Shown: piece after piece, positions 31,159 through 42,761 of the stretch
Numbering within the stretch: position 1 is the stretch's first letter
Layout of the letters: each line of letters starts with the position of its first letter
Assembly (NCBI RefSeq): GCF_013167455.1
Contig: NZ_CP038328.1
From: Escherichia coli O157:H7
Lineage (GTDB): Bacteria > Pseudomonadota > Gammaproteobacteria > Enterobacterales > Enterobacteriaceae
DNA length: 64,000 nucleotides
Direction: 5' to 3' (one strand)
The notes under the pieces: generated by a model
Seen by the model: the letters and a program-made list of their open reading frames with translations, nothing else
Databases searched by the model: none
What the model was told of the DNA's origin: nothing
Program-made: the position numbers and the translations under genes

Positions 31159-32508
31159 ATGTCTGAAATTGTTGTCTCCAAATTTGGCGGTACCAGCGTA
31201 GCTGATTTTGACGCCATGAACCGCAGCGCTGATATTGTGCTTTCTGATGCCAACGTGCGTTTAGTTGTCCTCTCGGCTTCTGCTGGTATCACTAATCTGC
31301 TGGTCGCTTTAGCGGAAGGACTGGAACCTGGCGAGCGATTCGAAAAACTCGACGCTATTCGCAACATCCAGTTTGCCATTCTGGAACGTCTGCGTTACCC
31401 GAACGTTATCCGTGAAGAGATTGAACGTCTGCTGGAGAACATTACTGTTCTGGCAGAAGCGGCGGCGCTGGCAACGTCTCCGGCGCTGACAGATGAACTG
31501 GTCAGCCACGGCGAGCTGATGTCGACCCTGCTGTTTGTCGAGATCCTGCGCGAACGCGATGTTCAGGCACAGTGGTTTGATGTACGTAAAGTGATGCGTA
31601 CCAACGACCGATTTGGTCGTGCAGAGCCAGATGTAGCCGCGCTGGCGGAACTGGCCGCGCTGCAGCTGCTCCCACGTCTCAATGAAGGCTTAGTGATCAC
31701 CCAGGGATTTATCGGTAGCGAAAATAAAGGTCGTACAACGACGCTTGGCCGTGGAGGCAGCGATTATACGGCAGCCTTGCTGGCGGAGGCTTTACACGCA
31801 TCTCGTGTTGATATCTGGACCGACGTCCCGGGCATCTACACCACCGATCCACGCGTAGTTTCCGCAGCAAAACGCATTGATGAAATCGCGTTTGCCGAAG
31901 CGGCAGAGATGGCAACTTTTGGTGCAAAAGTACTGCATCCGGCAACGTTGCTACCCGCAGTACGCAGCGATATCCCAGTCTTTGTCGGCTCCAGCAAAGA
32001 CCCACGCGCAGGTGGTACGCTGGTGTGCAATAAAACTGAAAATCCGCCGCTGTTCCGCGCGCTGGCGCTTCGTCGCAATCAGACTCTGCTCACTTTGCAC
32101 AGCCTGAATATGCTGCATTCTCGCGGTTTCCTCGCGGAAGTTTTCGGCATCCTCGCGCGGCATAATATTTCGGTAGACTTAATCACCACGTCAGAAGTGA
32201 GCGTGGCATTAACCCTTGATACCACCGGTTCAACCTCCACTGGCGATACGTTGCTGACGCAATCTCTGCTGATGGAGCTTTCCGCACTGTGCCGGGTGGA
32301 GGTGGAAGAAGGTCTGGCGCTGGTCGCGTTGATTGGCAATGACCTGTCAAAAGCCTGCGGCGTTGGCAAAGAGGTATTCGGCGTACTGGAACCGTTCAAC
32401 ATTCGCATGATTTGTTACGGCGCATCCAGCCATAACCTGTGCTTCCTGGTGCCCGGCGAAGATGCCGAGCAGGTGGTGCAAAAACTGCATAGTAATTTGT
32501 TTGAGTAA
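31159..32508 (+). CDS. lysC: lysine-sensitive aspartokinase III
   Basis: 449-aa product MSEIVVSKFGGTSVADFDAMNRSADIVLSDANVRLVVLSASAGITNLL... Confidence 0.97.
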   Translation: MSEIVVSKFGGTSVADFDAMNRSADIVLSDANVRLVVLSASAGITNLLVALAEGLEPGERFEKLDAIRNIQFAILERLRYPNVIREEIERLLENITVLAEAAALATSPALTDELVSHGELMSTLLFVEILRERDVQAQWFDVRKVMRTNDRFGRAEPDVAALAELAALQLLPRLNEGLVITQGFIGSENKGRTTTLGRGGSDYTAALLAEALHASRVDIWTDVPGIYTTDPRVVSAAKRIDEIAFAEAAEMATFGAKVLHPATLLPAVRSDIPVFVGSSKDPRAGGTLVCNKTENPPLFRALALRRNQTLLTLHSLNMLHSRGFLAEVFGILARHNISVDLITTSEVSVALTLDTTGSTSTGDTLLTQSLLMELSALCRVEVEEGLALVALIGNDLSKACGVGKEVFGVLEPFNIRMICYGASSHNLCFLVPGEDAEQVVQKLHSNLFE

Positions 32509-32760
32509 ATACTGTATGGCCTGGAAGCTATATTTCGGGCCGTATTGATTTTCTTGTCACTATGCTCATCAATAAACGAGCCTGTACTCTGTTAACCAGC
32601 GTCTTTATCGGAGAATAATTGCCTTTAATTTTTTTATCTGCATCTCTAATTAATTATCGAAAGAGATAAATAGTTAAGAGAAGGCAAAATGAATATTATC
32701 AGTTCTGCTCGCAAACGAATTCCCGTACACTGAACTCTCTGGCTCACTGAGGGCACCATC

Positions 32761-33033
32761 ATGGCACTCCCCCGTATTACCCAAAAAGAGATGACTGAAC
32801 GCGAGCAGCGTGAACTTAAAACACTGCTGGATCGGGCGCGGATTGCGCATGGTCGCGTACTGACCAACTCCGAAACCAACAGCATTAAGAAAGAGTACAT
32901 CGATAAATTAATGGTCGAGCGTGAGGCTGAAGCGAAAAAAGCCCGCCAGTTAAAGAAAAAGCAGGCTTATAAACCGGATCCTGAAGCGTCATTTAGCTGG
33001 TCAGCAAATACGTCGACGCGCGGCAGGCGCTGA
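32761..33033 (+). CDS. yjbD: DUF3811 protein YjbD
   Basis: 90-aa basic protein between lysC and rluF. Confidence 0.75.
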   Translation: MALPRITQKEMTEREQRELKTLLDRARIAHGRVLTNSETNSIKKEYIDKLMVEREAEAKKARQLKKKQAYKPDPEASFSWSANTSTRGRR

Positions 33034-33906
33034 TTAGCGCCCCTTCTTTTTTCGCCCCGGCGAGGTAAAACGCTTACCGTTGGACGCCGGGCGACCGCCT
33101 TTTTCCGCCGTTTTTTCCATCTTAACGACTGGACGTTTGATGCCCGCTGTTTTCGGTTTGGCCTTCGCTTTAGGTTTTGCCTCGGAAGAGGAATTTTCGA
33201 TGAGCTTAAAGAGGTCGATTAACTCATCGTCGGTTAAATCGCGCCACTCCCCCAGCGGAATGCCGCTTAAGCTGACGTTCATAATGCGCGTACGTTCCAG
33301 CTTTTTCACTTCATAGCCGAAATGCTCGCACATGCGCCGGATCTGACGGTTCAGCCCCTGCACCAGGGTAATGCGGAAGACAAACGGCGCTTCTTTTTTG
33401 ACTTTGCACTTTTTAGTCACCGTCCCGAGGATCGGCACCCCCGCCCCCATACCACGAATAAATTCATCGGTAATCGGTTTATCGACCGTCACCAGATACT
33501 CTTTCTCATGATCGTTACCCGCACGGAGGATCTTATTCACCAGATCGCCGTGATTGGTGAGGAAAATCAGCCCCTGGGAGTCTTTATCCAGGCGGCCAAT
33601 CGGGAACACGCGTTTGCTGTGGTTAACGAAATCGACAATGTTATCGCGCTCGCCATCTTCGGTGGTGCTGACAATGCCTACGGGCTTGTTCAGGGCGATA
33701 AGTACCAAATCTTCGGCTTCCCGAGGCTCAATCAACTGACCGTTTACTTTCACAACGTCGCCGGGTTTCACCTGATCGCCAATGGTGGCTCGCTTGCCAT
33801 TAAGGAACACATTGCCTTGCTCGATATAGCGATCCGCTTCGCGGCGTGAGCAAATTCCGCTTTCGCTGATGTATTTATTTAAACGGACTGATGAGTCGGG
33901 CAGCAT
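33034..33906 (-). CDS. rluF: 23S rRNA pseudouridine synthase RluF
   Basis: 290-aa product with S4 domain N-terminus ([21 protein letters not shown]) and a basic C-terminal tail. Confidence 0.9.
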
Positions 33907-34253
33907 AAATTCTCCTGTAAAACGCGGAATATACCGTACCTCTTAGCGGGGAAAAACAGGGTTATGCGGCAACGTCGAAATTAAATGTGATCTGCCACGC
34001 CTTTTATCACAAAAGTGTCTCCGGAAGTACAATGCAAATTTGCGTGGCAAAATAAGGATAATCAACATATTACGAATCGCTGCACACCTGTGCTGATAAC
34101 TACTGCGCAGAGAAACAAATGTGCAAGAGAAAGCGCTATTTCTCCCCATGCAAAGAGTGAAAAATCGCTTTGAAAGGCCATCATGATGGGGTTATATCAG
34201 ATCAAGCGGTGAGAAAGCGTATTTGCACAAATGTGCAGAACCAGGAGGCGGCA

Positions 34254-35201
34254 ATGGAAAACAGTGACGATATCCGTTTGATTGTGAAGATTGCCCAACT
34301 CTATTACGAACAGGATATGACGCAGGCGCAAATCGCGCGCGAACTGGGTATTTACCGCACCAACATCAGCCGCTTGCTTAAACGAGGCCGCGATCAGGGA
34401 ATTGTCACCATCGCCATCAACTATGACTACAACGAAAATCTCTGGCTGGAGCAGCAACTGAAGCAAAAGTTTGGCCTGAAAGACGTTGTGGTGGTGTCGG
34501 GAAATGATGAGGATGAAGAGACTCAACTGGCGATGATGGGGTTACACGGCGCGCAACTGCTGGATCGCTTGCTGGAGCCTGGCGATATTGTCGGTTTTTC
34601 CTGGGGTCGCGCGGTGAGCGCACTGGTTGAAAACTTGCCGCAGGCGGGGCAATCGCGGCAGTTAATCTGCGTACCAATTATTGGCGGACCGTCCGGTAAA
34701 CTCGAAAGCCGCTATCACGTAAACACATTAACCTACAGCGCGGCAGCGAAGCTGAAAGGGGAATCGCATCTCGCGGATTTTCCGGCTCTACTGGATAACC
34801 CATTAATTCGTAATGGGATCATGCAGTCTCAGCACTTTAAAACCATCTCTGCCTACTGGGATAATCTGGATGTCGCCCTGGTGGGAATTGGCTCACCGGC
34901 CATTCGCGACGGCGCTAACTGGCATGCGTTTTATGGTGGTGAAGAGAGTGACGACCTGAATGCCCGCCAGGTTGCTGGCGATATTTGCTCGCGCTTTTTT
35001 GATATTCACGGCGAAATGGTTGAAACGAATATGAGCGAAAAAACACTCTCTATCGAAATGAATAAATTAAAGCAGGCACGATATTCCATTGGCATTGCCA
35101 TGAGTGAAGAAAAATACAGCGGAATTATTGGTGCACTGCGTGGAAAATATATTAATTGTCTGGTAACGAATAGCAGCACAGCTGAACTATTACTGAAATA
35201 A
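34254..35201 (+). CDS. sorC: SorC-family transcriptional regulator of the sorbose operon
   Basis: HTH N-terminus (MTQAQIARELGIYRTNISRLLKRGRDQGIV) and sugar-binding C-domain; first gene of a sorCDFBAME-like cluster; start taken at MENSDDIRL inside the track ORF. Confidence 0.7.
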   Translation: MENSDDIRLIVKIAQLYYEQDMTQAQIARELGIYRTNISRLLKRGRDQGIVTIAINYDYNENLWLEQQLKQKFGLKDVVVVSGNDEDEETQLAMMGLHGAQLLDRLLEPGDIVGFSWGRAVSALVENLPQAGQSRQLICVPIIGGPSGKLESRYHVNTLTYSAAAKLKGESHLADFPALLDNPLIRNGIMQSQHFKTISAYWDNLDVALVGIGSPAIRDGANWHAFYGGEESDDLNARQVAGDICSRFFDIHGEMVETNMSEKTLSIEMNKLKQARYSIGIAMSEEKYSGIIGALRGKYINCLVTNSSTAELLLK

Positions 35202-35270
35202 AAATCTTCCCGATGTTTATCGTAATAAAAATTACGGCGGGTCCCTATTATCTAAAATCAGGAGTCTGTT

Positions 35271-36077
35271 ATGCAAACGTGGTTAAATTTGCAGGATAAA
35301 ATCATTATCGTCACCGGCGGCGCATCCGGTATTGGTCTGGCGATTGTAGAGGAATTATTAGCACAAGGCGCAAACGTACAGATGGTAGATATTCACGGTG
35401 GCGATGGACAATATGAAGGTCATAAAGGCTATCAGTTTTGGCCGACCGATATTTCCAGCGCCAAAGAGGTAAATCATACGGTAGCGGAAATTATCCAGCG
35501 TTTTGGTCGCATCGACGGTCTGGTCAATAACGCCGGGGTCAATTTCCCGCGTCTGCTGGTCGATGAGAAAGCGCCTGCCGGGCAGTATGAACTCAACGAA
35601 GCTGCATTCGAAAAAATGGTCAATATCAACCAGAAAGGCGTTTTTCTGATGTCGCAGGCGGTGGCGCGACAGATGGTCAAACAACATGATGGCGTGATTG
35701 TGAATGTTTCCTCAGAAAGTGGGCTGGAAGGCTCAGAAGGCCAAAGCTGTTACGCCGCTACCAAAGCCGCGCTCAATAGCTTCACGCGCTCCTGGTCGAA
35801 AGAGCTGGGTAAACACGGTATCCGTGTGGTCGGTATCGCGCCGGGGATTCTGGAAAAAACCGGGCTACGCACGCCGGAATATGAAGAGGCGCTGGCGTGG
35901 ACGCGCAATATCACCGTCGAGCAGCTGCGTGAAGGCTATACCAAAAACGCCATTCCTATTGGGCGCGCCGGAAGATTAGCAGAAATCGCTGATTTTGTTT
36001 GTTATCTGCTGTCTGAACGCGCCAGCTATATCACCGGAGTAACCACTAACATTGCGGGCGGCAAAACGCGCGGCTAA
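35271..36077 (+). CDS. sorD: SDR-family dehydrogenase (D-glucitol-6-phosphate dehydrogenase SorD-like)
   Basis: TGGASGIG Rossmann motif and YxxxK catalytic motif. Confidence 0.7.
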   Translation: MQTWLNLQDKIIIVTGGASGIGLAIVEELLAQGANVQMVDIHGGDGQYEGHKGYQFWPTDISSAKEVNHTVAEIIQRFGRIDGLVNNAGVNFPRLLVDEKAPAGQYELNEAAFEKMVNINQKGVFLMSQAVARQMVKQHDGVIVNVSSESGLEGSEGQSCYAATKAALNSFTRSWSKELGKHGIRVVGIAPGILEKTGLRTPEYEEALAWTRNITVEQLREGYTKNAIPIGRAGRLAEIADFVCYLLSERASYITGVTTNIAGGKTRG

Positions 36078-36086
36078 GGAGGCTTT

Positions 36087-36494
36087 ATGGTCAACGCCAT
36101 TTTTTGTGCCCACGGCAAATTAGCTTGCGCCATGCTGGAATCGGTTCAGATGGTTTACGGCAACGCCAATGTTGAAGCCGTTGAATTTGTGCCCGGTGAA
36201 AACGCCGGAGACATCGTAGCAAAGCTGGAAAAATTAGTAAGCATTCACAATCAAAATGAGTGGCTGATTGCCGTGGATTTACAGTGCGGCAGCCCGTGGA
36301 ATGCGGCAGCGATGCTTGCGATGCGCAATCCTCGTCTGCGGGTAATCAGCGGACTTTCTCTGCCGCTGGCGCTCGAACTGGTTGATAACCAGGACAGCAT
36401 GAATGTTGATGAACTGTGTGAACACCTGACGCAAATCGCAAAGCAAACCTGCGTTGTCTGGAAACAACTGGCAACGACAGAGGAGGATTTCTGA
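36087..36494 (+). CDS. sorF: PTS mannose/sorbose-family EIIA
   Basis: 135-aa product MVNAIFCAHGKLACAM...; EIIA-Man fold signature. Confidence 0.7.
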   Translation: MVNAIFCAHGKLACAMLESVQMVYGNANVEAVEFVPGENAGDIVAKLEKLVSIHNQNEWLIAVDLQCGSPWNAAAMLAMRNPRLRVISGLSLPLALELVDNQDSMNVDELCEHLTQIAKQTCVVWKQLATTEEDF

Positions 36495-36988
36495 TGAACA
36501 TTACGCTCGCCCGCATTGATGACCGCCTGATCCACGGTCAGGTCACTACCGTCTGGTCGAAAGTGGCTAACGCCCAGCGCATTATTATCTGCAATGACGA
36601 AGTTTATAACGATGAAGTTCGCCGGACATTATTGCGTCAGGCTGCGCCACCGGGAATGAAGGTTAACGTGGTCAATATTGAAAAAGCCGTCGCGGTTTAT
36701 CACAACCCGCAATATCAGGACGAAACCGTTTTTTATCTTTTCACTCGCCCACAGGATGCCTTAGCGATGGTTCGCCAGGGGGTAAAAATAGGCACCCTGA
36801 ATATTGGCGGCATGGCCTGGCGGCCCGGTAAAAAACAGTTAACCAAAGCGGTTTCATTAGATGATGATGATATTAACGCATTTCATGAGTTAAATAATCT
36901 AGGCGTCATACTGGATTTACGCGTCGTAGCGTCAGATCCCTCAATCAATATTATCTACAAAATAAACGAACAGTTAATCGCAAATTAA
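36494..36988 (+). CDS. sorB: PTS mannose/sorbose-family EIIB
   Basis: 164-aa product with RIDDRLIHGQV phosphorylation motif; start overlaps the sorF stop. Confidence 0.75.
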   Translation: MNITLARIDDRLIHGQVTTVWSKVANAQRIIICNDEVYNDEVRRTLLRQAAPPGMKVNVVNIEKAVAVYHNPQYQDETVFYLFTRPQDALAMVRQGVKIGTLNIGGMAWRPGKKQLTKAVSLDDDDINAFHELNNLGVILDLRVVASDPSINIIYKINEQLIAN

Positions 36989-37053
36989 ATAATAGCGCCT
37001 GTGTACATATGCTTTAACAGGCAGGGATGACGACACTTAAAAGGTGACAAATC

Positions 37054-37851
37054 ATGGAAATAAGTACCCTACAAATCATTGCTATATTTCTTTTTTCCTG
37101 TATTGCCGGAATGGGCAGCGTGCTGGATGAATTTCAGACTCATCGCCCGTTAATTGCCTGTACGGTGATTGGTTTAATTCTCGGTGATTTAAAAACCGGA
37201 ATAATACTCGGTGGTACGCTGGAATTGATAGCTCTCGGCTGGATGAACGTCGGCGCGGCGCAATCTCCGGATTCTGCACTCGCCAGCATAATCTCCGCCA
37301 TTCTGGTTATCGTTGGTCAGCAAAGCATCGCCACCGGAATCGCCATCGCGTTGCCTGTGGCTGCGGCAGGCCAGGTGCTGACGGTGTTTGCCCGTACCAT
37401 CACCGTAGTGTTCCAGCACGCGGCGGATAAAGCAGCGGAAGAAGCACGGTTTCGCACTCTCGATATTCTGCATGTCTCCGCGCTTGGCGTGCAGGCGCTG
37501 CGCGTCGCCATTCCGGCACTGATTGTCTCGCTGTTCGTCAGCGCCGATATGGTGAGCAATATGTTAAACGCCATTCCCGAATTTGTGACCCGAGGTCTGC
37601 AAATTGCTGGCGGTTTTATCGTGGTAGTCGGTTACGCCATGGTGCTACGTATGATGGGCGTGAAATATTTGATGCCTTTCTTTTTCCTCGGTTTCCTCGC
37701 AGGTGGCTACCTCGATCTCAGTCTGCTGGCGTTCGGTGGCGTCGGCGTGATCATGGCCCTGGTCTACATCCAGCTAAATCCACAGTGGCGTAAAGCTGAA
37801 CCTCAACTCCTGGCCCCCGCTTCCACCGCCCTTGACCAACTTGACGATTAA
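37054..37851 (+). CDS. sorA: PTS mannose/sorbose-family EIIC
   Basis: 265-aa polytopic membrane protein. Confidence 0.7.
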   Translation: MEISTLQIIAIFLFSCIAGMGSVLDEFQTHRPLIACTVIGLILGDLKTGIILGGTLELIALGWMNVGAAQSPDSALASIISAILVIVGQQSIATGIAIALPVAAAGQVLTVFARTITVVFQHAADKAAEEARFRTLDILHVSALGVQALRVAIPALIVSLFVSADMVSNMLNAIPEFVTRGLQIAGGFIVVVGYAMVLRMMGVKYLMPFFFLGFLAGGYLDLSLLAFGGVGVIMALVYIQLNPQWRKAEPQLLAPASTALDQLDD

Positions 37852-37861
37852 CGGAGCCATC

Positions 37862-38686
37862 ATGGAACAGAGAAAAATTACACGCGGCGATCTGGTGAGC
37901 ATGTTTCTGCGCTCCAACCTGCAACAGGCGTCCTTTAACTTTGAACGTATTCACGGGCTGGGTTTTTGCTACGACATGATCCCCGCCATCAAGCGACTTT
38001 ACCCAGTAAAAGAGGATCAGGTTGCGGCGCTCAGGCGACACCTGGTGTTCTTTAATACCACGCCAGCCGTATGTGGCCCGGTCATCGGCGTCACTGCCGC
38101 CATGGAAGAGGCGCGGGCCAACGGCGCGGAAATTGATGACGGCACCATTAACGGCATCAAAGTCGGTCTGATGGGACCATTGGCAGGGGTTGGCGATCCA
38201 CTGGTCTGGGGAACGCTGCGCCCGATTACCGCCGCGCTCGGCGCATCGCTGGCGCTGTCTGGCAACATTCTCGGCCCGCTGCTGTTCTTCTTTATTTTCA
38301 ACGCGGTGCGTCTGGCGATGAAGTGGTATGGCCTACAGCTCGGCTTTCGCAAAGGGGTGAATATCGTCAGCGATATGGGCGGGAATGTGCTGCAAAAACT
38401 CACCGAAGGCGCGTCGATTCTCGGACTGTTTGTGATGGGCGTGCTGGTCACCAAATGGACGTCAATCAACGTACCGTTGGTGGTTTCACAAACGCATGCC
38501 GCCGATGGCTCCACCGTCACCATGACCGTGCAGAACATTCTCGATCAACTTTGCCCTGGTTTGCTGGCGCTCGGTCTGACGCTACTGATGGTTCGTCTGC
38601 TCAACAAAAAAATTAACCCGGTATGGCTGATTTTCGCCCTGTTTGGCTTAGGGATTATCGGCAATGCGCTGGGCTTCCTGTCCTGA
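37862..38686 (+). CDS. sorM: PTS mannose/sorbose-family EIID
   Basis: 274-aa membrane protein from MEQRKITRGDLVSMFLRSNLQQASFNFERIHGLGF. Confidence 0.7.
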   Translation: MEQRKITRGDLVSMFLRSNLQQASFNFERIHGLGFCYDMIPAIKRLYPVKEDQVAALRRHLVFFNTTPAVCGPVIGVTAAMEEARANGAEIDDGTINGIKVGLMGPLAGVGDPLVWGTLRPITAALGASLALSGNILGPLLFFFIFNAVRLAMKWYGLQLGFRKGVNIVSDMGGNVLQKLTEGASILGLFVMGVLVTKWTSINVPLVVSQTHAADGSTVTMTVQNILDQLCPGLLALGLTLLMVRLLNKKINPVWLIFALFGLGIIGNALGFLS

Positions 38687-38737
38687 TTCTTCGCCCCGGC
38701 ACGACTGCCGGGGCCATCGTTCAACATGAGGTGGTTT

Positions 38738-39967
38738 ATGAAAACAACAGCTCTGCGTCTTTATGGTAAACGTGATTTACGCCTGGAAACCTTTGACCTT
38801 CCTGAAATGCAGGAGGATGAAATCCTCGCGACGGTGGTCACTGACAGCCTGTGCCTCTCTTCCTGGAAAGAGGCCAATCTGGGTGAAAACCATAAAAAAG
38901 TACCCGACGATGTGGCGACCAACCCAATCATCATCGGCCACGAGTTTTGCGGCGATATTCTGGCCGTGGGTAAAAAGTGGCAGCACAAATTCCAGCCGGG
39001 TCAGCGTTATGTGATTCAGGCCAACCTGCAACTCCCCGACCGCCCGGACTGCCCCGGCTACTCCTTCCCGTGGGTAGGCGGCGAGGCCACGCATGTGGTT
39101 ATTCCCAACGAGGTCATGGAACAAGATTGCCTGCTGGCATACGACGGCGAAACCTATTTTGAAGGCTCGCTGGTTGAACCGCTTTCCTGCGTGATTGGCG
39201 CGTTCAACGCCAACTATCATCTTCAGGAAGGTAGTTATAACCACACGATGGGGATTCGCCCGCAAGGGCGCATGCTGATCCTCGGCGGCACCGGACCAAT
39301 GGGACTGTTGGCGATTGATTATGCGCTACATGGACCCGTTAACCCGTCGCTGCTCGTCATTACCGATACCGACAACGATAAATTGAGTTATGCGCGCAAG
39401 CACTATCCATCAGAACCGCAAACACTGATTCATTATCTCAATGCCGCCGATGCAGCATTTGATACGCTAATGGCGCTGAGTGGCGGTCACGGCTTCGATG
39501 ATATTTTCGTCTTTGTGCCTAATGAAGGACTGGTGACTCTCGCCTCTTCCTTGCTGGCGACAGATGGTTGCCTGAATTTCTTCGCCGGACCGCAGGATAA
39601 ACATTTCAGCGCGCCAATTAATTTCTACGATGTGCATTATGCATTTACCCACTACGTGGGCACGTCAGGCGGCAATACCGACGACATGCGCGCAGCGGTC
39701 AAATTGATTGAAGAGAAAAAAGTGCAGGCCGCAAAAGTGGTAACACATATTCTTGGGCTGAATGCCGCGGGCGAAACCACGCTTGAATTGCCTGCCGTCG
39801 GCGGCGGCAAAAAGCTGGTGTATACCGGGAAATACCTGCCGCTGACGTCACTCACGCAGATTCAGGATCAAGCACTGGCGGCGATTCTGGCGCGTCATCA
39901 GGGGATCTGGTCCGGTGAGGCGGAGCAATATCTGCTCACTCATGCAGAGGCAATTTCCCATGATTAA
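38738..39967 (+). CDS. sorE: zinc-dependent dehydrogenase (L-sorbose-1-phosphate reductase SorE-like)
   Basis: About 409-aa MDR-family ADH with a Zn-binding segment (GHEFCGDIL); last gene of the cluster. Confidence 0.7.
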   Translation: MKTTALRLYGKRDLRLETFDLPEMQEDEILATVVTDSLCLSSWKEANLGENHKKVPDDVATNPIIIGHEFCGDILAVGKKWQHKFQPGQRYVIQANLQLPDRPDCPGYSFPWVGGEATHVVIPNEVMEQDCLLAYDGETYFEGSLVEPLSCVIGAFNANYHLQEGSYNHTMGIRPQGRMLILGGTGPMGLLAIDYALHGPVNPSLLVITDTDNDKLSYARKHYPSEPQTLIHYLNAADAAFDTLMALSGGHGFDDIFVFVPNEGLVTLASSLLATDGCLNFFAGPQDKHFSAPINFYDVHYAFTHYVGTSGGNTDDMRAAVKLIEEKKVQAAKVVTHILGLNAAGETTLELPAVGGGKKLVYTGKYLPLTSLTQIQDQALAAILARHQGIWSGEAEQYLLTHAEAISHD

Positions 39968-40127
39968 TCGCGCTACTTAACTCTGCATGTCGCTGGCTGG
40001 TCACCGCGGCAACTTCGCGACCTGATGTGCGGCTGATTGCTGAAGCGGCCCAATGTGCACGAGAAGGATAAAAAAACATCAGCGCCTTAAGGGGCGCTCA
40101 AATTGGTGGCAAAGTACACATTGTTTA

Positions 40128-40232
40128 TGCCGGATGCGGAATAAAGCCTTATTCGGCCTACATAATCTCGAAAATTCAATATATTGCAGTTATCTGGTAG
40201 GCCTGGTAAGCGTAGCGCATCAGGCAATGCTG
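40128..40232. repeat. REP elements between sorE and pepE
   Basis: gccggatgcgg...ccttattcggcctac and gtaggcctggtaagcg...catcaggca motifs. Confidence 0.6.
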
Positions 40233-40349
40233 TGTTTGTCATCAGTCTCAGCGCCCGGTGCAATACGTGACATCGTGAGCCATGTCAGTAAGTGGTTAAA
40301 TTCGCAGTGGTAGCATGCCTTCCGTGATTTCTTACTAACCGGAGAAGTA

Positions 40350-41039
40350 ATGGAACTGCTTTTATTGAGTAACTCGACGCTGCCGGGTAAAGCCTGGCTG
40401 GAACATGCACTGCCGCTGATTGCTGAACAGTTGCAGGGTCGCCGCTCAGCGGTGTTTATCCCTTTCGCTGGCGTAACGCAGACCTGGGATGATTACACAG
40501 CGAAAACGGCTGCGGTTCTCGCTCCGCTGGGTGTTTCTGTCACCGGTATTCATAGCGTTGTCGATCCCGTTGCCGCGATTGAAAATGCGGAAATTGTGAT
40601 TGTCGGCGGCGGTAATACTTTCCAGTTGCTGAAACAGTGCCGCGAGCGCGGGCTGCTGGCTCCAATTACTGACGTGGTTAAACGTGGCGCGCTGTATATT
40701 GGCTGGAGCGCAGGCGCTAACCTTGCTTGCCCAACCATTCGTACCACCAACGATATGCCGATTGTCGATCCGCAAGGTTTCGATGCGCTAAATCTGTTCC
40801 CGTTGCAAATCAACCCGCACTTCACCAACGCGCTGCCGGAAGGCCATAAAGGTGAAACCCGTGAGCAGCGTATTCGCGAACTGCTGGTCGTCGCGCCAGA
40901 ACTGACGATTATTGGTCTACCGGAAGGTAACTGGATCACAGTGAGTAAAGGTCACGCAACGCTGGGTGGCCCGAATACCACCTATGTGTTTAAGGCCGGT
41001 GAAGAAGCGGTTCCGCTGGAAGCTGGTCACCGTTTTTAA
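40350..41039 (+). CDS. pepE: alpha-aspartyl dipeptidase (peptidase E)
   Basis: 229-aa product [28 protein letters not shown]... Confidence 0.9.
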
Positions 41040-41043
41040 GTGA

Positions 41044-41116
41044 ATTGCCGGATGCATGATCCGGCATCTTGTTCATAGTGCCTGATGCGACGCTTGACGC
41101 GTCTTATCAGGCCTAC
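41044..41116. repeat. terminator hairpin (gccggatgcatgatccggc) plus REP element between the convergent pepE and yjbB genes
   Basis: Inverted repeat followed by a canonical REP (gcctgatgcgacgc...gtcttatcaggcctac). Confidence 0.55.
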
Positions 41117-41129
41117 AGGATTCACAATA

Positions 41130-42761
41130 TTAATACTCGTCCCGTCCCTCATCTTCATCAGGCTGTTCCAGCACACTGTAAGCCACCGAACAAAACAGCG
41201 AGTTCAGACGCTGCATATCTCCCAGTAAGCCTAAATGTAGCGAACTGGTTTCAATGCTTTGCACGTTTTGCTGATGCAGGCGATCGACGTGGGCGTGGGA
41301 ATAGCGGCGATTAAGAATGCGAAAGCGATGCTTGCTGCGGCGCAAACGACGAGCGCTGGTGACATCGCCAGAGAAGAACACCGACATTGCCAGCTTTAAA
41401 TTACTGAGCAATTGCTCATAGAGCGCATCCAGTTCCTTCAAGCCATCAAGCGAAAATGCTCGCCTTGCAGCCAGCGATTTGTCGGCAATTTCACTACTCA
41501 TGCGCTCGACGATATCGGAGGCCTGTTCAAGGTTGAGCGACATTTCGATGATCTCCGCCCAGCGGCGCGACTCTTCTTCTGCCAGTTCCTCTTTTGGCAT
41601 CCGCGCCAGATACAGCTTAATGGCGGTATAGAGAACGTTGATATCATCTGCCAGCTTACGCAGCTCTTTCTCCTGCCTTGGCTCGCCGTGCATCACTTTA
41701 TTCAGCCCTTCCATCATCTGTTCCATGGCGTCGCCAATGCGCAGGGTTTCGCGCGCGGCGTTCGCCAGAGCAAGCGTGGGCGTATCCAGCGCGCTGACAT
41801 CCAGATGTTTAGGCCGTAGCTGGGTATCCAGTTCCGGTTCATCGCGAATAATCGTTTTGCAAAACCGTGCCATCGGGTCAACAAATGGCAGCATGGCCAG
41901 GCAACGTACAAGGTTGTAGAAGACGTGGAAATAGATCACCAGTTCCGCTTTTGGCAATGACAACTTCCCCATTGTCTCTGCCAGCAAATGGACAAACGGC
42001 AGGATAATCAGGCTACCCACCAGCTTAAACAGCAGACTACCCAGCGCGACACGGCGGGCTGCGGCATTGGCGGCACTGTTGTTGAGCATCGCCAGCAGGC
42101 CGGAACCGAGGTTAGCACCAATCACCAGACAGAGCGCCACGGGGAAGGAGATAATGCCTGCGGCGGTCAGAGTCGCGGTCAGCAGTACAGCAGCAAGGCT
42201 GGAGTAGCTGATAATGGCGAACATCGCGCCAATCAGCGCATCCAGCAGAATATCGCCGGTCAGCGAGGCAAAGATCACCTGAACGCCGTTTGCCTGGGTG
42301 ATCGGCGTTACGGCCTGCACAATCAACTCCAGCGCCAGCAAAATCAGCCCAAGACCAATACCGACGCGGCCCAGTTGCCCGGCGCGTGACTGTTTGCGTC
42401 CGAGGAAAAAAATCACGCCGATAAAAATAAGTAACGGTGACAGCCAGGATAAGTCGAAGGTGAGAATACGCGCCATTAGCGCCGTCCCGACATCTGCCCC
42501 CAGCACAATGACCAGAGCCGGTGCGAGGGCTACCAGATCCTGAGCGACGAACGAGGTCACCAGCATGGTGGTGGCATTACTGCTCTGTACCAGTGCGGTA
42601 ACGCCGATCCCCGCGCAAAAGGCGAGCGGCTTTTTTTCGACGCTCCGGCTAAGGACAGTACGCAAACGCGCGCCGAAGACGCGCATTACGCCGGTTCGAA
42701 CAATATGAGTCCCCCAGACCAGCAGGGCGACGGCAGAAAGCAGGTTAAGCAGCGTTAACAC
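41130..42761 (-). CDS. yjbB: Na+/phosphate cotransporter-like membrane protein with PhoU-like domain
   Basis: 543-aa product MLTLLNLLSAVALLVWGTHIVRTGVMRVFGA... Confidence 0.85.
   Translation of the reverse strand: MLTLLNLLSAVALLVWGTHIVRTGVMRVFGARLRTVLSRSVEKKPLAFCAGIGVTALVQSSNATTMLVTSFVAQDLVALAPALVIVLGADVGTALMARILTFDLSWLSPLLIFIGVIFFLGRKQSRAGQLGRVGIGLGLILLALELIVQAVTPITQANGVQVIFASLTGDILLDALIGAMFAIISYSSLAAVLLTATLTAAGIISFPVALCLVIGANLGSGLLAMLNNSAANAAARRVALGSLLFKLVGSLIILPFVHLLAETMGKLSLPKAELVIYFHVFYNLVRCLAMLPFVDPMARFCKTIIRDEPELDTQLRPKHLDVSALDTPTLALANAARETLRIGDAMEQMMEGLNKVMHGEPRQEKELRKLADDINVLYTAIKLYLARMPKEELAEEESRRWAEIIEMSLNLEQASDIVERMSSEIADKSLAARRAFSLDGLKELDALYEQLLSNLKLAMSVFFSGDVTSARRLRRSKHRFRILNRRYSHAHVDRLHQQNVQSIETSSLHLGLLGDMQRLNSLFCSVAYSVLEQPDEDEGRDEY

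What the first reader, a model, noticed from the sequence alone, without database searches (positions are those of the whole stretch)
34170..40232. L-sorbose PTS operon inserted between rluF and pepE
Seven co-directional genes match the sor operon layout known from Klebsiella and some E. coli: regulator, SDR dehydrogenase, mannose-family PTS EIIA, EIIB, EIIC, EIID, and Zn-dependent dehydrogenase, in that order. In K-12, rluF and pepE are neighbours, so this block of about 6 kb is strain-variable accessory DNA. REP elements at its right border (40128..40232) may mark the insertion scar.
Basis: partly seen in the sequence, partly recalled or inferred. Interest (0 to 1): 0.45.

Follow-up and report, generated by a model that had tools for sequence, protein, structure and literature searches.

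The report
Known L-sorbose operon of E. coli
This is the well-known seven-gene operon that lets many E. coli strains take up and burn the sugar L-sorbose; it sits at its usual, ancient chromosomal place, and K-12 lacks it because its lineage lost it, not because this strain gained it.

Summary
Seven intact, co-directional genes, sorC-D-F-B-A-M-E (34254..39967), lie between rluF and pepE, followed by two inverted REP elements (40127-40161, 40197-40231). The window is 100% identical to two E. coli chromosomes. It is 96.9% identical, without gaps, to the CFT073 fragment that was cloned and shown to confer growth on L-sorbose. SorC and SorB are about 86-87% identical to the Klebsiella proteins with solved structures. 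So the system is already known.

The "insertion" reading is not supported. The operon occupies the same rluF | sor | pepE-yjbB-metH slot in other Escherichia species, Pseudocitrobacter, Citrobacter, Klebsiella, Raoultella, Enterobacter and Cedecea. Its divergence tracks that of the flanking genes. It has no mobility genes, no flanking repeats and no unusual G+C. 2865 of 5426 complete E. coli genomes carry it. 2557 carry instead a nearly invariant, unrelated 86-bp filler, as in K-12. The variable segment is 33942..40259, and K-12 is best read as a loss. The REPs are ordinary, variable elements downstream of the operon, not a scar.

One addition: 39960-40071 is the remnant of an eighth gene, a shikimate-dehydrogenase-like gene that overlaps the sorE stop codon. 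It is intact in most other enterobacterial sor loci and in 177 E. coli genomes. Here a 701-bp deletion has removed it.

The parts
33942..40259 (.). Strain-variable segment of 6318 bp. It is replaced in K-12-type genomes by an unrelated 86-bp filler.
   Evidence: Homology to sor-minus E. coli (L002, L003) stops at 33941 and resumes at 40260. K-12 MG1655 has the identical 211-bp spacer.
33942..34253 (+). Regulatory region between rluF and sorC. Blocks conserved across genera include an invariant TGTGATC at 33986-33992. Three TGCACA..TGTGCA-type sites lie at 34081-34094, 34112-34125 and 34224-34237 and are candidate SorC operators. A candidate promoter has -35 TTGAAA at 34170-34175 and -10 TATATC at 34193-34198. 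These functional roles are inferred.
   Evidence: Alignment of 11 taxa. Pattern search: three of the four distinct matching sites in 64 kb fall in this region, although the total count is not above chance.
34254..35201 (+). sorC, the SorC-family regulator (N-terminal HTH plus sugar-binding domain), 315 aa.
   Evidence: It aligns over its full length with Klebsiella SorC, PDB 2W48, at E 1.5e-182 and 86.7% identity. The RefSeq CDS has the same coordinates.
35271..36077 (+). sorD, an SDR-type D-glucitol (sorbitol)-6-phosphate dehydrogenase, 268 aa.
   Evidence: NF004817 sorbitol-6-phosphate dehydrogenase, 501 bits against a cut-off of 304. The TGGASGIG, NNAG and YAATK motifs are readable in the translation.
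36087..36494 (+). sorF, PTS EIIA of the mannose family, 135 aa.
   Evidence: TIGR00824, 148 bits against a cut-off of 98. His9 is present in MVNAIFCAHG.
36494..36988 (+). sorB, PTS EIIB, 164 aa. Its start overlaps the sorF stop.
   Evidence: Best PDB hit is 1NRZ, the 'sorbose-specific IIB component', at E 9.5e-90 and 86% identity. TIGR00854 scores 223 bits. The RIDDRLIHGQ active-site His motif is present.
37054..37851 (+). sorA, PTS EIIC, 265 aa.
   Evidence: TIGR00822 EII-Sor, 421 bits against a cut-off of 340. It is 93-96% identical to the Klebsiella and Raoultella loci.
37862..38686 (+). sorM, PTS EIID, 274 aa.
   Evidence: TIGR00828, 471 bits against a cut-off of 293. RefSeq start.
38738..39967 (+). 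sorE, a Zn-dependent MDR-family L-sorbose-1-phosphate reductase, 409 aa.
   Evidence: RefSeq names it sorE. Pfam finds ADH_N and ADH_zinc_N. The GHE and GGTGPMG motifs are in the translation. It differs from CFT073 SorE by 4 substitutions.
39960..40071 (+). Remnant of an eighth gene, shikimate-5-dehydrogenase-like (sdhL). The first ~58 nt and last ~54 nt are joined by a 701-bp deletion at about 40017|40018. An in-frame TAA is also present at codon 7.
   Evidence: blastn against L007, L004 and L044 shows the break. The intact 270-aa gene scores 461 bits on NF009202. It follows sorE in 28 loci and in 177 E. coli genomes. Sequence.
40081..40098 (.). G+C-rich hairpin (AGCGCC-loop-GGCGCT) just after the sdhL remnant. 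The T-run is on the minus strand only, so any terminator role for the + strand operon is uncertain.
40127..40231 (.). A pair of inverted REP elements, BIME-like: 40127-40161 on + and 40197-40231 on -. An AT-rich spacer containing a palindrome lies between them.
   Evidence: Fuzzy match to REP consensus sequences that I supplied from memory.

Best explanation
This is the chromosomal L-sorbose utilisation operon sorCDFBAME of E. coli, at its ancestral enterobacterial position between rluF and pepE.

The mechanism follows established knowledge of the Klebsiella and E. coli sor system. The four-part mannose-family PTS transporter takes up L-sorbose and phosphorylates it to L-sorbose-1-phosphate. 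Its parts are SorF (IIA), SorB (IIB), SorA (IIC) and SorM (IID). SorE reduces the product to D-glucitol-6-phosphate. SorD oxidises that to D-fructose-6-phosphate, which enters glycolysis. SorC, the first gene, represses the operon without sorbose and activates it with sorbose. I infer that it acts through the conserved TGCACA..TGTGCA palindromes upstream of and overlapping the 5' leader of sorC.

The presence/absence polymorphism within E. coli is best explained by loss of the operon in the lineage leading to K-12 (mostly phylogroups A and B1). There a single 86-bp replacement allele has spread. The strain in the window has kept the operon but, like most sor+ E. coli, has lost a translationally coupled eighth gene (sdhL) through a 701-bp deletion. 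That gene is not needed for growth on sorbose.
For: Gene content, order and domain families come. SorC is 86.7% identical over its full length to Klebsiella SorC (2W48), and SorB is 86% identical to Klebsiella IIB-Sor (1NRZ). All seven proteins are 73-96% identical, at full length, to the syntenic genes of Klebsiella and Raoultella.

Function of the same operon has been shown experimentally. The primers used to clone the CFT073 operon map to 33908-33935 and 39968-39997. The window is 96.9% identical to CFT073 over those 6090 bp with no gaps, and all seven proteins have equal length with 1-10 substitutions. That fragment let DH5alpha grow on L-sorbose (PMC2831201). In ST131, a sorE deletion abolished growth on sorbose; a sorAM deletion did not. 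A knock-in into an ST10 strain conferred growth, and the seven genes were the most strongly sorbose-induced genes (PMC12817954).

The position looks ancestral. The same rluF | sor | pepE-yjbB-metH order occurs in E. whittamii and a cryptic-clade Escherichia. E. albertii shows the same right-hand half; its contig ends inside sorA. The order also occurs in Pseudocitrobacter, Citrobacter, Klebsiella, Raoultella, Enterobacter and Cedecea. Nucleotide identity of the sor genes tracks that of the flanks in each comparison. G+C is ordinary. No flanking repeats or mobility genes were found.

Allele counts: 2865 sor+ genomes at 95-100% identity, against 2557 filler genomes of which 2545 are at least 99% identical.
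Against: Growth of this particular strain on L-sorbose was not and cannot be tested here. The direction of the event (loss versus gain) is inferred from distribution and divergence, not from a reconstructed phylogeny. Homologous recombination through the conserved flanks could also place an acquired operon at the same site. I could not trace the 86-bp filler to any sequence, so the event that made the sor-minus allele is not a simple deletion. Salmonella carries a different gene (DUF2058) at this site, so the slot is variable among genera. The SorC operators and the promoter are inferred only from conservation. The palindrome pattern as such is not more frequent in the window than chance.
Confidence: 0.9

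Rival explanations
1. One reading: a ~6 kb accessory block was horizontally inserted between rluF and pepE in the lineage of this strain, and the REP elements are the scar of that insertion.
For: There is a sharp presence/absence polymorphism within E. coli, with abrupt homology breaks at 33941/33942 and 40259/40260. The slot is variable among genera: Salmonella has a DUF2058 gene there, and other taxa have extra cargo between sdhL and pepE. Pseudocitrobacter sor genes are somewhat closer to E. coli than its flanks are, so some lateral exchange of this locus may occur.
Against: The operon sits at the same site in many genera, with divergence matching the flanks. It has no mobility genes, no target-site duplication and no terminal repeats, and its G+C is typical. 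It is present in over 86% of genomes in all phylogroups except A and B1 (PMC12817954) and in non-coli Escherichia. The sor-minus allele holds 86 bp of unrelated DNA rather than a clean empty site, and that allele is nearly invariant. The REPs are variable in number and are separated from sorE by the remnant of another gene.
Confidence: 0.08
2. The PTS belongs to another mannose-family system, such as glucosaminate, fructoselysine or mannose, and the sorbose assignment is wrong.
For: NCBIfam subfamily models do not separate sorbose from mannose or fructose specificity. For example, the ManZ-type model NF008315 also passes its cut-off with SorM.
Against: The best structural-database hits are the Klebsiella sorbose proteins, well ahead of ManX (302 against 168 bits for IIB). 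The transporter genes are embedded between sorC/sorD and sorE, and the whole block is near-identical to the CFT073 operon shown to confer growth on L-sorbose (PMC2831201). Sorbose induces these genes (PMC12817954).
Confidence: 0.02
3. The operon is present but silent or defective in this strain, for example because of regulatory changes or the loss of sdhL.
For: Decay does occur at this locus. sdhL is deleted here, and there are apparent frameshifts in sorD or sorE in L007, L044 and E. albertii. Published surveys report sor+ pathotypes with variable phenotypes (PMC2831201, citing Lehmacher and Bockemuhl).
Against: All seven ORFs are full length, with catalytic motifs intact. The regulatory region keeps every block conserved across genera. 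CFT073 and ST131 strains carry the same sdhL deletion and grow on sorbose (PMC2831201; PMC12817954, which reports sdhL absent from ST131).
Confidence: 0.08

Closest known systems
Klebsiella pneumoniae sor operon (sorCDFBAME; Sprenger & Lengeler 1984, Wohrl et al. 1990, as cited in PMC2831201 and PMC12817954; structures 2W48 SorC and 1NRZ IIB-Sor)
   Same: The seven genes are the same and in the same order. SorC is 86.7% and SorB 86% identical to the crystallised Klebsiella proteins. Klebsiella species have the operon at the same chromosomal slot next to rluF.
   Different: The Klebsiella loci examined keep an intact shikimate-dehydrogenase-like gene overlapping the sorE stop, plus extra DNA before pepE. 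In the window that gene is deleted.
E. coli CFT073 operon c4981-c4987 (PMC2831201) and the ST131/ST648 sor operons (PMC12817954)
   Same: The two are collinear: 96.9% nucleotide identity over the cloned fragment, no gaps, the same sdhL deletion and the same REP pair.
   Different: Only 1-10 amino-acid substitutions per protein, including a run of seven at SorA 251-257 in the C-terminal tail.
E. coli ManXYZ mannose PTS
   Same: The same transporter family (TC 4.A.6) with IIA, IIB, IIC and IID parts. IIB-Man is the next-best PDB hit.
   Different: ManX is a fused IIAB, whereas here IIA and IIB are separate genes. The man operon has no linked SorE or SorD enzymes and no SorC regulator.
SorC/DeoR(Bsu)/CggR/LsrR regulator family (PMC11229326)
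   Same: The same two-domain architecture. Bacillus DeoR and E. coli LsrR are clear homologues. Operators of this family are paired palindromic half-operators bound by tetramers, which matches the conserved palindromes seen here.
   Different: The SorC operator has not been defined in what I could read. The sites proposed here are inferred.

Membership tests
sor operon (sorCDFBAME) for L-sorbose catabolism | Seven genes in the order regulator, SDR dehydrogenase, IIA, IIB, IIC, IID, Zn-dependent reductase, all co-directional | tested here: met
   The same order is seen in the syntenic loci of more than 25 enterobacterial genomes.
sor operon (sorCDFBAME) for L-sorbose catabolism | Orthology to the characterised Klebsiella proteins | tested here: met
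   SorC against 2W48: 86.7% over 315 aa. SorB against 1NRZ: 86% over 160 aa. All seven are 73-96% identical to Klebsiella and Raoultella species loci. PMC2831201 Table 3 reports 82-97% similarity between CFT073 and K. pneumoniae.
sor operon (sorCDFBAME) for L-sorbose catabolism | Confers growth on L-sorbose and is induced by L-sorbose | not testable with these tools
   [quoted passage not shown] Not shown for this strain.
sor operon (sorCDFBAME) for L-sorbose catabolism | Intact reading frames and catalytic motifs | tested here: met
   Protein lengths equal those of CFT073. IIA His9, the IIB RIDDRLIHGQ motif, the SDR TGxxxGxG/NNAG/YxxxK motifs and the MDR GHE and GxGxxG motifs can be read.
Mannose-family PTS (IIA, IIB, IIC, IID) | All four components present and above the curated model cut-offs | tested here: met
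   TIGR00824 148/98, TIGR00854 223/164, TIGR00822 421/340 and TIGR00828 471/293 bits (score/cut-off).
Horizontally inserted genomic island | Integrase or transposase genes, flanking direct repeats or a tRNA target, atypical composition, absence from related species at that site | tested here: not met
   No such genes. No flanking repeats. G+C is 0.41-0.58, similar to the flanks. The operon is present at the same site in many genera.
REP/BIME intergenic repeats | Imperfect palindromic units of ~35 nt matching the REP consensus, occurring in inverted pairs outside coding regions after the 3' end of an operon | tested here: met
   40127-40161 (+) and 40197-40231 (-) match the consensus. Similar units occur elsewhere in the window.

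The most novel reading that the evidence does not exclude
The enterobacterial sor operon is ancestrally an eight-gene unit. Its last gene, a shikimate-dehydrogenase-like oxidoreductase (sdhL), starts 8 nt inside sorE and has no known role in sorbose catabolism. Most E. coli, including this strain, removed it by one 701-bp deletion. The literature treats it as an ST648-specific insertion. The rluF-pepE spacer would also be an old hot spot where whole alleles are swapped: sor, the 86-bp filler, DUF2058 in Salmonella, or efflux cargo.
Probability: 0.7. Interest if true: 0.25.

Novelty: already known. Interest (0 to 1): 0.1.

Why it matters
It matters little as a discovery. The operon, its function, its map position near metH and its patchy distribution in E. 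coli have all been published, and recent work links it to fitness of pathogenic lineages (PMC2831201, PMC12817954, PMC13410766). The check adds three corrections. K-12 is the derived, sor-less state. The variable segment is 33942-40259 and is replaced in K-12 by an unrelated 86 bp. An eighth, uncharacterised gene belongs to the ancestral operon and survives here only as a remnant. That gene would be a reasonable target for anyone studying sorbose metabolism in Klebsiella, Citrobacter or phylogroup F E. coli.

Tried and rejected
- **Origin of the 86-bp K-12 filler.** blastn-short against all 83 sor loci and against the Salmonella and unnamed enterobacterial loci gave no match. In E. coli genomes it is single-copy and found only in sor-minus genomes. 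Its origin stays unexplained.
- **Flanking repeats.** I looked for direct or inverted repeats at the borders as signs of a mobile element and found none.
- **Rfam.** A scan of 32500-41200 found no known RNA family.
- **Promoter and terminator scan.** Counts were at or below the chance level. The one + strand promoter-like hit upstream of sorC (34004-34033) is not conserved in other genera. I therefore prefer the conserved TTGAAA/TATATC pair, though without proof.
- **CRP site.** A clear site was not found. An invariant TGTGATC exists, but the second half-site is poor at the canonical spacing (read).
- **SorE family model.** NCBIfam has no equivalog model that SorE passes. Its name rests on the RefSeq annotation and on orthology.
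- **Deletion junction.** The exact microhomology at the sdhL deletion junction could not be fixed because the sequences have diverged.
- **Outgroup search.** I therefore reached outgroups without sor only indirectly, through PepE homologues. E. fergusonii was not identified among them.
Full report
**What is there**

The region 31-47 kb of the window is E. coli chromosome, with the gene order lysC, yjbD, rluF(-), seven + strand genes, pepE, yjbB(-), metH(-). The stretch 33000-41100 is 100% identical to the chromosomes of E. coli 2017C-4109 and NCCP 14541. RefSeq annotates the seven genes as follows:

- a sugar-binding transcriptional regulator
- an SDR oxidoreductase
- PTS IIA, IIB, IIC and IID of the mannose/fructose/sorbose family
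- sorE, L-sorbose 1-phosphate reductase

In window coordinates these are sorC 34254-35201, sorD 35271-36077, sorF 36087-36494, sorB 36494-36988, sorA 37054-37851, sorM 37862-38686 and sorE 38738-39967.

The finding's start, 34170, is merely the first TTG of the longest ORF. The start at 34254 gives the 315 aa of Klebsiella SorC. NCBIfam places SorD in the sorbitol-6-phosphate dehydrogenase family (501 bits, cut-off 304). It places the four PTS parts above the cut-offs of the family models. SorE has the two domains of Zn-dependent medium-chain dehydrogenases. Catalytic motifs are readable in the translations: IIA His9, the IIB RIDDRLIHGQ motif, the SDR TGxxxGxG/NNAG/YxxxK motifs, and the MDR GHE and GxGxxG motifs.

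**Is it the sorbose system?**

The best matches among solved structures are the Klebsiella sorbose proteins themselves.

- SorC matches 2W48 over all 315 residues, with 86.7% identity.
- SorB matches 1NRZ ("sorbose-specific IIB component") with 86% identity. It scores 302 bits, against 168 for IIB-Man.
- Against the syntenic loci of Klebsiella and Raoultella, all seven proteins align at full length with 73-96% identity.

The decisive link to function is published. [quoted passage not shown] The two cloning primers map to window 33908-33935 and 39968-39997. Over that 6090-bp stretch the window and CFT073 are 96.9% identical with no gaps. All seven proteins have the same length and differ by 1-10 substitutions.

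A second study gives supporting genetics (PMC12817954):

- The seven genes are the most strongly sorbose-induced genes in ST131 and ST648.
- A sorE deletion abolishes growth on sorbose. A sorAM deletion did not, which the authors attribute to uptake through other PTS transporters.
- A knock-in into an ST10 strain confers growth.

The rival idea of a different mannose-family PTS can therefore be set aside.

**How it works**

These steps come from established knowledge of the Klebsiella and E. coli sor pathway, not from tests made here.

1. SorF, SorB, SorA and SorM take up L-sorbose and deliver L-sorbose-1-phosphate.
2. SorE reduces it to D-glucitol-6-phosphate.
3. SorD oxidises that to fructose-6-phosphate.
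4. SorC represses the operon without sorbose and activates it with sorbose (Wohrl et al. 1990, as cited in PMC12817954).

An alignment of the rluF-sorC spacer from 11 taxa shows invariant blocks:

- TGTGATC at 33986-33992
- three TGCACA..TGTGCA-type sites at 34081-34094, 34112-34125 and 34224-34237, the last a perfect palindrome just upstream of the sorC ribosome-binding site
- an invariant GGTTATATCAGATCA block, preceded by TTGAAA

Three of the four distinct sites in the 64-kb window that match the palindrome within three mismatches lie in this 160-bp stretch. The total count is not above chance, however.

By analogy with the paired palindromic half-operators of the SorC family (PMC11229326), I propose these sites as SorC operators. 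I propose TTGAAA (34170-34175) and TATATC (34193-34198) as the promoter. Both proposals are inference.

**Borders and direction of the event**

Against sor-minus E. coli, homology stops at 33941 and resumes at 40260. The variable segment is therefore 6318 bp. It begins 35 bp from the rluF start codon and ends 90 bp before pepE.

K-12 MG1655 has rluF and pepE 211 bp apart. The middle 86 bp of that spacer are unrelated to anything in the sor segment or in any sor locus fetched, so this is not a clean empty site.

Among 5426 complete E. coli genomes:

- 2865 carry the operon, at 95-100% identity.
- 2557 carry the filler, always in single copy. It is at least 99% identical in 2545 of them.

A scan of one genome per species with SorE showed the operon in the same slot (rluF | sorCDFBAME | ... 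pepE-yjbB-metH) in these taxa:

- E. whittamii and a cryptic-clade Escherichia
- E. albertii, where the contig begins inside sorA, so only sorA-sorM-sorE-pepE-yjbB-metH is seen
- Pseudocitrobacter, several Citrobacter species and five Klebsiella species
- Raoultella, Enterobacter and Cedecea

Nucleotide identity of the sor genes to the window tracks that of the flanking genes in each comparison. For example, Klebsiella michiganensis gives 73-85% for sor against 80-85% for the flanks, and E. whittamii gives 89-95% against 84-92%. G+C is unremarkable. There are no mobility genes, and no repeats bracket the segment.

The published distribution is over 86% in every phylogroup except A (9.6%) and B1 (12.1%) (PMC12817954). 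Together these data make the operon ancestral at this site. The K-12 state is then a derived loss that spread as one allele. The word "inserted" in the finding is thus the wrong way round, although "strain-variable" is right.

I could not exclude that recombination through the flanks has also moved the locus between lineages. Pseudocitrobacter sor genes are slightly closer to E. coli than its flanks are. Salmonella has a DUF2058 gene in this slot, so the site is a variable one on a longer time scale.

**The right end: REPs and a lost eighth gene**

The two REPs are real: 40127-40161 (+) and 40197-40231 (-). They resemble other REPs in the window. They lie inside the variable segment, 28 bp from its end.

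Between sorE and the REPs, the stretch 39960-40071 turned out to be the two ends of a gene that is intact elsewhere. In L007, L004, L044, L084 and 24 other enterobacterial loci, a 270-aa shikimate-5-dehydrogenase-family gene starts 8 nt before the sorE stop (ATGATTAA overlap). It scores 461 bits on NF009202.

The window lacks 701 bp of this gene, with the junction near 40017|40018. CFT073 shares the deletion. Only 177 of 5426 E. coli genomes keep the gene.

PMC12817954 noticed this gene (sdhL) in ST648. It reported the gene as expressed with sorbose and described it as an ST-specific insertion. The comparative data here argue instead that it is the ancestral state and that most E. coli deleted it. 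The deleted form supports growth on sorbose, so the gene is dispensable for that trait. Its role is unknown.

The REP segment is itself variable. It is missing in L084 and repeated about four times in E. albertii. REPs are normal elements downstream of operons, and nothing suggests a scar.

**Verdict**

The identification as the sor operon is correct and already well known. The insertion and scar interpretation is not supported. Interest is low. The only mildly new points are the ancestral eight-gene form of the operon, its remnant here, and the unexplained 86-bp replacement allele of K-12.

Noticed in passing
window 39960-40071: This is the remnant of a shikimate-5-dehydrogenase-like gene (sdhL) that overlaps the sorE stop by 8 nt. 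A 701-bp internal deletion and an early TAA disrupt it. The gene is intact in 28 other enterobacterial sor loci and in 177 of 5426 E. coli genomes. Its function in the operon is unknown.
   Followed up: yes
window 33033|33034 (compare L003 1378-1510 and K-12 L085 4728-4859): K-12-type genomes carry a 132-bp element between the convergent stop codons of yjbD and rluF. It has terminal inverted repeats (AACGCCTGAG...CTGAGGCGTT) and an internal G+C-rich palindrome. The window has no spacer there at all. It looks like a small non-autonomous mobile element.
   Followed up: partly
L003 2418-2503 (K-12 spacer, the counterpart of window 33942-40259): The 86-bp filler of sor-minus E. coli has no detectable relative in any sor locus, in Salmonella, or elsewhere in E. 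coli genomes. Its origin is unexplained.
   Followed up: yes
L086 5240-5779 (Salmonella enterica); L088 1-5909: The rluF-pepE slot holds different cargo in other taxa. Salmonella has a DUF2058 gene instead of sor. An unnamed enterobacterium has a TetR regulator plus an outer-membrane factor, a membrane-fusion protein and an MFS efflux gene between sdhL and pepE. Citrobacter and Klebsiella have 1-9 kb of extra DNA there.
   Followed up: partly
L041 3526-4377 (E. albertii); L084 8274-8395: The REP/BIME segment downstream of the operon is repeated about four times in E. albertii. It is absent in an sdhL+ E. coli (NRZ105822).
   Followed up: partly
L007 4068-4880 (sorD); L044 10001-11226 (sorE); L041 1517-2760 (sorE): tblastn splits these genes into two pieces. 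This suggests frameshifts, and so decay of the operon, in some Escherichia lineages. Sequencing errors in draft assemblies are an alternative.
   Followed up: no
window 37804-37824 (SorA residues 251-257): Seven consecutive amino-acid differences from CFT073 SorA (QLLAPAS against HPQTTTI) lie in the C-terminal tail, with no gap in the DNA alignment. It is a local hypervariable patch.
   Followed up: no
L033, L035 (Enterococcus); L036-L047 (Gilliamella): Related sorbose-type clusters exist outside the Enterobacteriaceae. Enterococcus keeps the C-D-F-B-A-M-E order at 31-73% protein identity. Gilliamella has F-B-A-M-E followed by the regulator, with no adjacent close SorD.
   Followed up: no
hits H4 and H10: A few E. 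coli genomes match the region in two pieces that span about 750-880 bp more than the query. That is consistent with an insertion sequence somewhere in the locus.
   Followed up: no
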